Shown: one piece after another, positions 2,304-4,449 of the stretch | How the letters are laid out: every line of letters starts with the position of its first letter | Numbering within the stretch: the first letter of the stretch is position 1 | Position numbers and translations under genes: made by a program | Notes under the pieces: generated by a model | Told to the model about the DNA's origin: nothing | The model's database searches: none | The model's input: the letters and a program-made list of their open reading frames with translations, nothing else | Source of the DNA: Thermoplasmatales archaeon | GTDB taxonomy: Archaea > Thermoplasmatota > Penumbrarchaeia > Penumbrarchaeales > Penumbrarchaeaceae | Direction: 5' to 3' | DNA length: 64,000 nucleotides | Assembly (NCBI GenBank): GCA_030595715.1 | Contig: JAUVCN010000001.1 | Coordinates: 1,418-65,417 of the forward strand

Positions 2304-4449
2304 TATGCTTGTAGATCAACTCTACAGCACCGGTTCCCTGTGTTATCGGCTGACCCACGATAATGTTCTCTGCAACACCCGAAAGTGGTTCGACCTCACC
2401 GGTGATACCTGCCGTAAGCAGGTGATTGGCGGTGATCTCGAACGCAGCTCTGGCAAGAACAGATGATTTCTCTCCTGATATGCCATGTCTTCCTATGGCC
2501 CTTATGGTGCCACCGACCGCCATGACATCGGCCACAAGCATCAGATGTCTGGGGTCCACTGTAAGGCCCTGTTCCGAAAGTGTCTTCTTTGCTTCTTCGA
2601 AGATCGATCTCCTCGCTGCTTCCACACCGAGGACCAATGATATCTCAATGATGCTGTTGGTGGAAGCACGGGCAACATCCACACCCGGAAGCTCAAGGAT
2701 CTTCTTCATGCTGGAACCTTCCGAGTAGAGGACATATTCTTCACCCTCGTGGCGGATAATGACCCTCTTGATCTCGTCTATTCCCTTCACTTTGGACTTC
2801 TTGATGTTCTCCCACATGTTCAAAATGGTCTTGAAGTTCATCTTCTTTTGGCCCATGAAGTTGATCACAAACCTGTCATCCAACCTTTCGATCTGGCTCT
2901 CCTTGATCTTCTTGTTGGTCTCCCTTATTCGTTTAATGAGGAACTCCTGATCGATGTCCTTCTTATCCATCACCTTCTTCCTGGGAGAAATGGTGATGAT
3001 CATCCTGGCAAGATCCACCTCGGTGTCCGAGACGTCAGACACAAGGGTAAGCTCGATGTTGCTGTTGACGAACTTCTTGATATCATTGAGGGTCTGACCT
3101 TTCTCCTTTCTCAGATGGATCTCCATCATCGGAGTTGAGGGCATCTTCCTTGCATCGACTATCTCGATCAATCTTGGAAGACCCAGTGTCACGTTGATCT
3201 CTGCCACACCAGCATAGTGGAATGTCCTCATTGTCATCTGTGTGCCCGGTTCTCCAATGGACTGTGCGGCAACGATACCAACAGATTCATGAGGATCTAT
3301 CAGGTTCCTCTTGAACTGGGAAAGCGCCATATTGCATATCTTTTCTATGTAATTCTTCTTGTCAACCTTGAGGTCGATCATCTTGTTCCCAAGATCGAAT
3401 ATCATCTTGGATGAAAGGGTTGTTCTACCTCCGGTGTTCTCGATCTTCTCGAACACCTTCAACAGTTCATCGATCATCACGATGGAACTCTCCATCTTCT
3501 TGTAGTCCCAGTCCTCACGAACCGCCCTCTCGGAGAGGAAATACCTGTAATCAACCGGTATCTCGACCTTGTTCTTCTTCATGACCTCTTCGATCAGATC
3601 GGTCCTCAATGGTTTGAACTGCTCTACGGCGATCTCTTCAACGACCTTCTTCTGCTTTTGTTCCTTCTTGGTCTCCTTGGGAGCTGGTTCGTTCTCCTTC
3701 TTGAGAAGGTCCTCGAAGTCCTCCACCCAGATCAAGGTATACTGCCTTGCGCTCTTGACCGGGGTATCGTTCACTGTTGTGAAAGATCCCAGAGGAAGTC
3801 CCTGTGGCAGGGGTTCGATCGATGAGATTGTAAGGTATGCAAGGGCTGATCCATCCGGTACGACCTTGGAGAGCCTTGATGGTATCAGTTTCTTTCCCTT
3901 CGGGGTTTTCAAAGGTTCCTTATCGGTCTCGATATGGGAGATCCTTGCTTTGAACGCCACAGAATCGGATTTGATATAGATGAACCCATCAATAGGAAGC
4001 TCGAACCTTTTAAGGTTCACGTAGAACTTGCAGGGCCAGATCACCTTCTTATCCTTCTCCAGGATGGTGATCGCCTCATCAATGGCATCTTTATCAGGGG
4101 ATGTCCAGATGAAACCCATCTCCTTCTTCTCCTTCTTGGCTGGAGCGGCCTTTGGCTTGGTTTCCGCTTTCTCTGAGGTCTCCACGGTTACAGCCTGTGA
4201 ACTGGGCCCTTCGACGGCAGGTTCATCTCCTTCGAGCCTAACCCATGCAAAGGACCTCTTGAACCTCTTGCCGGAGATGCCGGATAATCTCTCCATTTGT
4301 GTAGGTCCCATTGAAAGGACCTCTTCAAGGGAATGCTCGGAATCGGGTCCCAGGAGCTTCAATACCCCATCTTTTGGAAGGTCCCTGGATACAAGGAAAT
4401 CGACGAGTTCCTTCTTGTTCTTGATGATAATGTTCCTCTCGACCATCAT
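2284..4449 (-). CDS. rpoA2: DNA-directed RNA polymerase subunit A'' (Rpo1C) with a roughly 330-aa lineage-specific insertion
   Basis: The C-terminal 330 aa are canonical A'' ([48 protein letters not shown] ... [15 protein letters not shown]). Total length is 721 aa against roughly 390 aa typical, because of an internal insert after the first 30 residues. Confidence 0.9.

What the first reader, a model, noticed from the sequence alone, without database searches (positions are those of the whole stretch)
3265..4360. Roughly 330-aa insertion with an embedded globular domain inside RNA polymerase subunit A''
RpoA'' is normally around 390 aa and here it is 721 aa. Canonical A'' sequence resumes at [17 protein letters not shown] near residue 395. 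The insert comprises K/E-rich linkers flanking a roughly 130-aa hydrophobic-core module ([38 protein letters not shown]...YTLIWVE). I found no intein hallmarks: no N-terminal Cys/Ser, no HN junction and no LAGLIDADG. A lineage-specific RNAP surface domain of this kind, analogous to bacterial beta' SI3, could dock regulators.
Basis: partly seen in the sequence, partly recalled or inferred. Interest (0 to 1): 0.55.

Follow-up and report, generated by a model that had tools for sequence, protein, structure and literature searches.

The report
Nucleic-acid-reader domains fused to archaeal RNA polymerase
In a group of uncultured Thermoplasmatota archaea, RNA polymerase subunit A'' carries an extra ~330-residue N-terminal arm holding a small helical domain and a PUA-like (YTH/EVE/ASCH-type) barrel, a fold that usually reads modified bases in DNA or RNA, so the polymerase appears to carry its own nucleic-acid sensor.

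Summary
The 721-aa ORF (window 2284-4449, minus strand) is real and is RpoA''. The extra sequence is not an internal insertion. It is an N-terminal extension of about 325-344 aa that sits at the A'/A'' split.

The extension has four kinds of part:
- a conserved helical domain (res 1-72, with an HhH-like GISGKRFKR motif);
- two disordered K/E/P-rich linkers;
- a 147-aa globular domain (res 109-255);
- a short helical adaptor.

The extension is not an intein or an assembly artefact. Twenty full-length MAG orthologues keep one continuous ORF, and both folded domains show dN/dS of about 0.15.

A profile search found the same domain, single or in tandem, at the N-terminus of A'' in other Thermoplasmatota, including Marine Group III. 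It also found the domain fused or adjacent to PLD nucleases, in one case inside a restriction-modification island.

Best reading: these are flexibly tethered nucleic-acid-binding modules on RNAP, probably binding DNA and possibly reading a base modification. The architecture is firm. The ligand and function are inferred.

The parts
4452..4458 (-). Shine-Dalgarno-like GGAGGTG upstream of the rpoA'' start. The rpoA' stop TGA (4446-4448) overlaps the ATG ATG start (4449-4444).
   Evidence: Sequence read; position. Supports translation from the first ATG, coupled to rpoA'.
4234..4449 (-). N-terminal helical domain, residues 1-72, five short helices, invariant GPxxLxxxxG(I/V)SGKRF(K/R)RxFAW motif (HhH-like hairpin).
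   Evidence: pLDDT 74-79. 20 invariant columns in 6 sequences. dN/dS 0.16. Only a weak profile hit to the KIF22 HhH2 domain, E 0.56. No Pfam hit.
4126..4233 (-). Linker 1, residues 73-108, disordered E/K/A/P-rich tether.
   Evidence: pLDDT <50. 14% identity among orthologues, length 33-84 aa, dN/dS ~0.75. Composition.
3685..4125 (-). PUA-like (ASCH/YTH/EVE-type) beta-barrel domain, residues 109-255. Family-conserved positions include W115, W138, F142, N145, P152, G155, Y158, Y205, F223 and V231-K-S-A-R-x-Y237.
3613..3684 (-). Linker 2, residues 256-279, K/E-rich and disordered, ending in the conserved KKK(V/I)xEEIxVxQFKPL motif. Its length is constant among orthologues.
   Evidence: pLDDT <50 at 255-279. 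Length 24-26 aa in all 20 orthologues. Invariant columns E263...L281.
3475..3612 (-). Helical adaptor, residues 280-325 (helices 283-292, 299-311 and the start of 316-338). It lies upstream of the first residue alignable to solved Rpo1C chains and is colinear with the TIEPKIREIxKKNKxxLPEExxxRLG segment of the wider family.
   Evidence: Secondary structure. Colinear alignment. Boundary of canonical A''.
2284..3474 (-). Canonical RpoA''/Rpo1C, residues 326-721 plus stop. Includes the trigger-loop motif [19 protein letters not shown] at 388-406.
   Evidence: TIGR02389 at 345-713, 438 bits. PF04998. S. acidocaldarius Rpo1C residues 2-389 align to 326-714, E 2e-94.
4446..7106 (-). rpoA' (886 aa), immediately upstream. 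The operon is rpoH (10599-10853), rpoB (7119-10532), rpoA', rpoA'', rpl30e (1983-2303).
   Evidence: Same order and Pfam content in L001/L002.

Best explanation
RpoA'' of this archaeon, and of a set of uncultured Thermoplasmatota, has acquired a ~330-aa N-terminal arm at the A'/A'' split point.

Order of parts: small helical HhH-like domain; ~36-aa floppy linker; PUA-like (ASCH/YTH/EVE-type) beta-barrel; ~25-aa fixed-length linker; short helical adaptor; normal A''.

Shown:
- the arm is translated as part of A'';
- it is conserved under purifying selection;
- it is modular;
- the globular domain is predicted to have a PUA-like fold.

Inferred:
- The attachment point corresponds to the Rpb1 'foot' on the outer surface of the enzyme. 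This rests on knowledge of the Pol II domain map, not on a test here.
- The two folded domains swing on their tethers and bind nucleic acid near the polymerase, most likely DNA.
- The PUA-like barrel possibly accommodates a flipped or modified base, as YTH, EVE and McrB-N do.
- Functionally it would act like a built-in, tethered DNA-contact or sensor module, comparable in logic to the linker-tethered alpha-CTD of bacterial RNAP or to Rpo13. It would influence promoter or elongation contacts, or report the modification state of the template.
For: Architecture:
- TIGR02389 covers only residues 345-713.
- Solved Rpo1C chains align from residue 326.
- A Shine-Dalgarno sequence and an ATGA overlap with rpoA' mark the start.
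- 20 full-length orthologues have a continuous 716-771-aa ORF starting at the rpoA' stop.
- 23 GTDB species loci contain the extension.

Selection: dN/dS is 0.16 for the N-terminal domain, 0.15 for the PUA-like domain, 0.10 for the core and ~0.75 for linker 1.

Fold: two independent models give the same PUA-like top hits. Some family members have faint sequence hits to Pfam Pua-like PF24405 (E 1.4e-4) and EVE (E 0.029).

Wider family: a profile search of 1.84e9 representatives found 28 proteins.
- Most are 580-912-aa A'' proteins with one or two tandem copies at the N-terminus. The two loci examined sit in the standard rpoH-rpoB-rpoA'-rpoA'' operon.
- One group is named Marine Group III.

Nucleic-acid link:
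- In relatives the N-terminal domain resembles the (HhH)2 repeats of topoisomerase V (whole-sequence E 7.6e-5, summed over repeats; the best single stretch is only 8.4 bits).
- P0012 has an above-threshold Pfam HHH_5 domain between the PUA-like domain and the A'' core; P0031 has a sub-threshold HHH_5 hit at the same place (24.6 vs 27 bits).
- Non-RNAP members are fused to a PLD nuclease, P0017, whose nuclease part hits the PADLOC type IV methyl-directed REase model at 5.5e-10.
- Another non-RNAP member overlaps a PLD/DrmC-like nuclease ORF next to a type II DNA methyltransferase (1e-47) and a GHKL ATPase.
Against: - No binding or structural experiment exists.
- The models rest on a 7-sequence alignment and are of moderate confidence (pLDDT 68 and 79).
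- Neither the window's PUA-like domain nor its N-terminal domain hits any Pfam or PDB sequence profile.
- In the window's clade neither domain is markedly basic (median charge about 0). This gives no electrostatic support for non-specific DNA binding.
- PUA-like folds also include RNA binders, enzymes (ac4C amidohydrolase, ZmASCH RNase) and protein-interaction modules.
- The position of the arm on the enzyme was not modelled.
Confidence: 0.55

Rival explanations
1. Nascent-RNA module. The PUA-like domain acts on RNA rather than DNA. It would either read a modification (as YTH reads m6A) or act as an ASCH-type enzyme (RNase or N4-acetylcytidine amidohydrolase). It would bind or process the transcript co-transcriptionally.
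For: - The best fold matches are ASCH-type (AF2351, ZmASCH) and YTH RNA readers.
- ASCH proteins have been reported as tRNA ac4C erasers (paper listed).
Against: - The non-RNAP homologues are tied to PLD DNA nucleases and, in one island, a DNA methyltransferase, not to RNA enzymes.
- The partner domains in relatives are HhH, which is typically a dsDNA binder.
- The inferred attachment point (foot side) is not next to the RNA exit channel; this is inference from Pol II knowledge.
- No ASCH Pfam hit and no GxKxxExR-type motif was seen.
Confidence: 0.2
2. Protein-docking platform. The arm recruits transcription factors or other proteins to RNAP, and the PUA-like barrel has lost nucleic-acid binding.
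For: - Near-neutral charge of both domains in the window's clade.
- The window's clade deviates from the family consensus at several conserved positions (WPCKF for WGxxF, ARQYT for ARNYT).
- Flexible tethers are typical of recruitment arms.
Against: - The PUA-like and HhH modules recur together on A'' in several lineages.
- The nuclease and R-M context of stand-alone relatives.
- The family-conserved aromatic and basic positions (W115, W138, F142, Y158, R235, Y237) are retained.
Confidence: 0.17
3. Neutral or purely structural accretion. The lineage adds charged extensions to many informational proteins, and the arm has no specific activity.
For: uS5, eL32, FtsZ and SecY in the same window also have N-terminal extensions, several of them K/E-rich.
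Against: - Those other extensions are low-complexity tails, whereas here two folded domains are under purifying selection nearly as strong as the catalytic core.
- The domain is retained, and even duplicated, across divergent lineages.
Confidence: 0.06
4. Artefact or mobile element: an intein, a separate upstream gene fused by assembly error, or untranslated sequence with the true start further downstream (as in NCBI's 588-aa calls).
For: - NCBI annotates the orthologues in L001/L002 from an internal Met.
- One metagenomic contig (L026) shows the arm and the core as two ORFs.
Against: - No Hint, LAGLIDADG or HNH signatures; the sequence is at the N-terminus, so there is no N-extein.
- 20 full-length orthologues keep one frame.
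- The region upstream of NCBI's start is conserved and under selection, and that start cuts the PUA-like domain. In the window that position is Val (GTG), not Met.
- In L026 the A'' frame stays open back past the end of the upstream ORF, which is the pattern of a single-base indel.
Confidence: 0.02

Closest known systems
YTH / EVE / ASCH / McrB-N readers (PUA-like superfamily)
   Different: No significant sequence match to any of these families or to any solved structure. The family has its own motifs (GIIWS, WGxxFxIN, FPxxGYIYxKG, VKSARNYTxI). It is covalently part of RNA polymerase, an architecture I did not find described.
Bacterial RNAP alpha-subunit C-terminal domain (alpha-CTD)
   Same: A small helical (HhH-type) DNA-binding domain attached to core RNAP by a flexible linker. 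This is the closest analogue in logic for the tethered N-terminal domain and for the HHH_5 domains of relatives.
   Different: Different subunit, terminus and domain of life. Homology of the window's own N-terminal domain to HhH is unproven. The arm also carries a PUA-like domain, which alpha-CTD lacks.
Rpo13 of Sulfolobales/Desulfurococcales RNAP
   Same: A lineage-restricted archaeal RNAP addition with a small helical DNA-proximal motif and lysine-rich disordered parts, proposed to contact DNA (PMC2675907, read).
   Different: [quoted passage not shown] The present feature is a 330-aa covalent extension of A'' with a beta-barrel domain, in Thermoplasmatota.
Lineage-specific insertions of bacterial beta/beta' (SI3, BEAN, HABAS)
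   Same: Lineage-specific domain accretion on the largest RNAP subunits (PMC11515920).
   Different: Those are insertional domains of other folds (sandwich-barrel hybrid, BEAN) at internal sites. Here the addition is terminal, linker-tethered and PUA-like. That paper lists only a conserved archaea-wide N-terminal domain (beta'-aD3) for Rpo1C.
Inteins in archaeal RpoA'' (e.g. Methanocaldococcus; NCBIfam PRK14898, 860-aa model)
   Same: They also make A'' much longer than 390 aa.
   Different: The PRK14898 match covers only the core and is far below cut-off (369 vs 783 bits). There is no Hint domain or splice junctions.

Membership tests
RNAP subunit A''/Rpo1C (TIGR02389) | Full-length match to the equivalog model above its curated cut-off | tested here: met
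   438.1 bits vs 420.65; model positions 2-366/367 on residues 345-713.
RNAP subunit A''/Rpo1C (TIGR02389) | Trigger-loop motif and position directly after rpoA' in the rpoH-B-A'-A'' operon | tested here: met
   [19 protein letters not shown] at 388-406. Operon order.
Intein | Hint domain with N-terminal Cys/Ser and C-terminal HN followed by Cys/Ser/Thr, embedded between two exteins | tested here: not met
   No Hint, LAGLIDADG or HNH Pfam hit. No HN[CST]; Cys only at 140 and 372. The extra sequence starts at residue 1, so there is no N-extein.
PUA-like superfamily (fold level) | Pseudo-barrel fold superposable on ASCH/YTH/EVE structures | tested here: met
YTH domain (Pfam YTH) | Sequence-profile match | tested here: not met
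   No Pfam hit for the window protein or for any of 27 family members at E<=10.
YTH domain (Pfam YTH) | Aromatic cage around the methylated base | not testable with these tools
   Model coordinates cannot be superposed here. Conserved W115, W138, F142, Y158 and Y237 are candidates only.
EVE domain (PF01878) | Sequence-profile match | tested here: not met
   Window: none. 2 of 27 family members hit sub-threshold, best E 0.029.
ASCH domain | Sequence-profile match / conserved GxKxxExR-type motif | tested here: not met
   No Pfam ASCH hit. The motif is not present in the family consensus. Only the fold is similar.
Pfam Pua-like (PF24405) | Match above gathering score (27 bits) | tested here: not met
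   3 of 27 members hit weakly, best E 1.4e-4. P0022 scores 20.3 bits. The window's domain has no hit.
Helix-hairpin-helix (HHH_5 / (HhH)2) | Profile match of the N-terminal domain (residues 1-72) | tested here: inconclusive
Bacterial beta' SI3-type insertion | Sandwich-barrel-hybrid domain inserted within the trigger loop | tested here: not met
   The extra sequence lies entirely upstream of the trigger-loop motif and of the whole canonical subunit. Its fold is PUA-like.

The most novel reading that the evidence does not exclude
The archaeal RNA polymerase itself carries a base-modification reader. The tethered PUA-like domain would probe the template or non-template DNA (or the nascent RNA) for a methylated or otherwise modified base, and transcription would be tuned accordingly. 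One example would be favouring self-modified over foreign unmodified DNA. That would be a direct, covalent coupling of epigenetic reading to the transcription enzyme, conserved from EX4484-6-like Thermoplasmatota to Marine Group III.
Probability: 0.2. Interest if true: 0.85.

Novelty: new variant of a known kind. Interest (0 to 1): 0.62.

Why it matters
Archaeal RNAP is usually treated as architecturally uniform apart from inteins, subunit splits and Rpo13.

- **A large accretion on a catalytic subunit.** Here a catalytic-core subunit has acquired two folded accessory domains, and the accretion recurs across several uncultured Thermoplasmatota lineages, including marine MGIII.
- **An uncatalogued domain family.** The PUA-like domain is not in Pfam. 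Its other members sit with PLD nucleases, in one case in a restriction-modification island, so it is a candidate DNA or modified-base sensor.
- **If it reads modifications.** It would be a direct physical link between base modification and transcription in archaea. This is testable with a 150-aa recombinant domain.
- **Annotation.** In the two NCBI records examined the gene is called from an internal Met, hiding the extension. This may explain why protein-database searches found only six homologues while a DNA-level scan found 23 genomes.

Tried and rejected
Rejected: the canonical A'' is contiguous from residue ~326-345.
- **Intein.** Rejected.
- **Assembly fusion or wrong start.** Rejected by 20 full-length colinear ORFs, the Shine-Dalgarno sequence and start overlap, and dN/dS.
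- **A naturally split version (arm as a separate subunit) in L026.** Probably a frameshift, because the A'' frame stays open across the junction. Not claimed.
- **The arm replaces NusA, which is missing after rpl30e in the window and in L001/L002.** Rejected: the relative's locus L031 has both the arm and L30e-NusA.
- **Sequence-level assignment of the globular domain.** Pfam, NCBIfam and PDB sequence profiles gave nothing significant.
- **Sequence or fold assignment of the N-terminal domain as HhH.** Inconclusive.
- **AFDB Foldseek.** The library was unavailable.
- **Word-indexed profile search with the family alignment.** It returned only 7 proteins and missed known members, so it was not used for distribution claims.
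- **Literature.** Four searches found no description of this architecture (papers read). The library is incomplete, so prior description elsewhere cannot be excluded.
- **Rfam scan of the window.** No hits.

Full report
**Observation.**
- The minus-strand ORF 2284..4449 encodes 721 aa.
- It lies in a standard rpoH-rpoB-rpoA'-rpoA''-rpl30e operon.
- Its ATG overlaps the rpoA' stop (ATGA) and is preceded by GGAGGTG.
- Pfam finds only RNA_pol_Rpb1_5.
- The A'' equivalog TIGR02389 matches above cut-off, but only on residues 345-713, covering model positions 2-366 of 367.
- Solved archaeal Rpo1C/A'' chains are 391-397 aa. The S. acidocaldarius chain aligns residue 2 to query residue 326.
- The protein is therefore a complete canonical A'' preceded by about 325-344 extra residues.
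- The quoted motifs are present: ESVGIV... at 388-404, IWPCKF... at 137-174 and YTLIWVE at 237-243.

**Is it real?**
- A search of 5.8e9 proteins with the extension found only six homologues, all Thermoplasmatota A'' or fragments.
- Two of these were annotated as 588 aa. In their contigs the frame is open for 736 and 737 aa, starting exactly at the rpoA' stop. NCBI's start falls inside the globular domain.
- A DNA-level scan of GTDB species representatives found 23 loci, all Thermoplasmatota MAGs, one being 'ex4484_6'.
- Twenty full-length orthologues, two of them the NCBI contigs above, have 716-771-aa ORFs of the same layout.
- Nei-Gojobori dN/dS medians are 0.16 (residues 1-72), 0.75 (linker 1), 0.15 (residues 109-255), 0.34 (linker 2), 0.44 (residues 276-344) and 0.10 (core). 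Many pairs are saturated, so these values are approximate.
- There is no Hint/LAGLIDADG hit and no HN[CST]. There are only two Cys, and there can be no N-extein.
- Intein, assembly fusion and wrong-start explanations are therefore rejected.
- One contig (L026) shows the arm and the core as separate ORFs. The A'' frame stays open across the junction, as expected for an indel error.

**Anatomy.** An AlphaFold model of residues 1-345 (7-sequence alignment, pLDDT 68) shows the following:
- a five-helix domain at 6-72;
- disorder at 73-107;
- a mixed alpha/beta domain at 110-253;
- disorder at 255-279;
- helices at 283-338.

Linker 1 varies from 33 to 84 aa among orthologues. Linker 2 is always 24-26 aa and ends in a conserved KKKVxEEIxVxQFKPL motif. 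The adaptor and canonical N-terminal helices are colinear with those of more distant extended A'' proteins.

**The globular domain.**
- A separate model of residues 105-262 has pLDDT 79 and pTM 0.72.
- Foldseek puts YTHDF2 and YTHDC1 first (E 2e-3, prob about 1).
- This is the PUA-like superfamily of ASCH, YTH and EVE barrels. AF2351 is listed among ASCH-like structures in PMC6803910.
- At sequence level there is nothing significant against Pfam or PDB. There are only faint sub-threshold hits of some family members to Pfam 'Pua-like' PF24405 and to EVE.
- It is therefore a distinct, uncatalogued family within that fold class.

**The wider family.** A profile of the domain searched against 1.84e9 representative proteins returned 28 proteins.
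- Most are A'' subunits of 580-912 aa with the domain at the N-terminus. Several have two tandem copies (P0008-P0012, P0015).
- They are preceded by a different N-terminal helical domain that resembles the (HhH)2 repeats of topoisomerase V (whole-sequence E 7.6e-5, summed over repeats) and XPF.
- P0012 has an above-threshold Pfam HHH_5 domain between the barrel and the core. P0031 has a sub-threshold HHH_5 hit in the same place.
- The P0008 and P0012 loci are ordinary rpoH-rpoB-rpoA'-rpoA''-rpl30e operons. The P0012 locus keeps NusA, so the arm does not replace NusA.
- Relatives of P0019, whose 90% cluster has 144 members, include a protein named Marine Group III euryarchaeote.
- The family consensus is GIIWS..D...WG..F.xN.K.F.FP..GYIY.KG.GV.Y...I..I...P...TYL.I..I..L...L..F...G..VKSARNYT.I.
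- The window's clade keeps W115, W138, F142, N145, P152, G155, Y158, Y205, F223, K232, R235 and Y237.

**Functional clue from non-RNAP members.**
- P0017 is a PLD nuclease followed by this domain. The nuclease part matches PLDc_2 and the NgoFVII restriction-enzyme N-terminal domain, and hits the PADLOC type IV methyl-directed REase model at 5.5e-10.
- P0026 overlaps a PLD/DrmC-like nuclease ORF in two independent assemblies. It sits beside a type II DNA methyltransferase (1e-47), DUF7669 proteins, a GHKL ATPase and an AAA_15/OLD-like protein.
- In such enzymes PUA-like domains serve as DNA or modified-base sensors; this is established for SRA, EVE, YTH-like McrB-N and ASCH-type readers.
- Together with the recurring HhH partners, this favours DNA as the ligand.

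**Mechanism (inferred).**
- By alignment, the canonical N-terminus of A'' corresponds to Rpb1 just upstream of the trigger-loop helix, in the 'foot' region on the enzyme's outer surface. This rests on my knowledge of the Pol II domain map and was not tested here.
- From there a fixed ~25-aa tether carries the PUA-like barrel, and a variable 33-84-aa tether carries the helical domain.
- I propose they act as tethered nucleic-acid contacts, analogous in logic to bacterial alpha-CTD or to Rpo13 (PMC2675907). The barrel would possibly read a flipped or modified base.

**Caveats.**
- The models are of moderate confidence.
- The window's N-terminal domain cannot be assigned to HhH.
- Neither domain is basic in this clade.
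- RNA binding, enzymatic ASCH-like activity and protein docking remain live rivals.

**Novelty.** Searches of the paper library found no description of a PUA-like or HhH arm on archaeal A''. These included the EVE/DCD census (PMC7641849) and the RNAP insertion survey (PMC11515920). The kind of thing, lineage-specific domain accretion on RNAP and a PUA-like reader, is known. This combination and position is not. I rate it a new variant of a known kind, with interest 0.62.

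Noticed in passing
L001 5557-7767; L002 5554-7767: NCBI annotates these orthologous rpoA'' genes as 588 aa from an internal Met. This leaves a ~445-nt 'intergenic' gap after rpoA' and cuts the PUA-like domain. The open frames are 736 and 737 aa. The truncation hides the extension from protein databases.
   Followed up: yes
L026 167-2666: The arm (404 aa, HhH plus two PUA-like copies) and a 411-aa A'' appear as separate ORFs in different frames. The A'' frame stays open back to nt 1326, overlapping the upstream ORF end, so this is probably a frameshift error. 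A real split or programmed frameshift is not excluded.
   Followed up: partly
L028 3633-4638; L029 435-1440; L030 352-1548: Non-RNAP members of the domain family are fused to (P0017), or overlap by 59 nt (P0026, in two independent assemblies), a PLD/DrmC-like nuclease. In L028 the neighbours are a type II DNA methyltransferase, two DUF7669 proteins, a GHKL ATPase and an OLD/AAA_15-like gene. This may be an undescribed restriction or defence module.
   Followed up: partly
window 45245-46120 (uS5), 47098-47676 (eL32), 639-1841 (FtsZ), 42486-44249 (SecY): Several housekeeping proteins carry N-terminal extensions. uS5 is 291 aa with a ~65-aa K/E/D-rich head. eL32 is 192 aa with two tandem ~24-aa K/E-rich repeats. 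FtsZ has a ~70-aa disordered head. SecY is 587 aa with an extra hydrophobic N-terminal ~100 aa. Charged tails may be a proteome-wide habit of this lineage.
   Followed up: no
window 369-2303; L001/L002 7769-10223: rpl30e is followed by ftsZ, a small SecE-like membrane protein and (in L001/L002) spt5, instead of the usual nusA-rps12-rps7. The relative's locus L031 keeps L30e-NusA.
   Followed up: partly
window 4093-4137: Met111, the first residue of the conserved EMGFIW strand of the PUA-like domain, is preceded by AAGAAGGAGAAGAAGGAG. This is Shine-Dalgarno-like, so an internal start giving a shorter isoform lacking the N-terminal domain is conceivable but untested.
   Followed up: no
window 28532-28879: A 168-bp AT-rich tandem repeat (2.1 copies, 94% identical) lies in an intergenic region and mimics a 135-aa ORF. 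There is no Rfam match anywhere in the window.
   Followed up: partly
window 24502-25626: A single 374-aa ORF combines the aTrm56 tRNA 2'-O-methyltransferase domain with a C-terminal HD phosphohydrolase domain.
   Followed up: no
window 29096-41136: Three consecutive very large ORFs (1203, 1185 and 1044 aa) carry TSP3, PKD/Big and glucodextranase-B/Big repeats. They are probably surface or S-layer-associated proteins.
   Followed up: no
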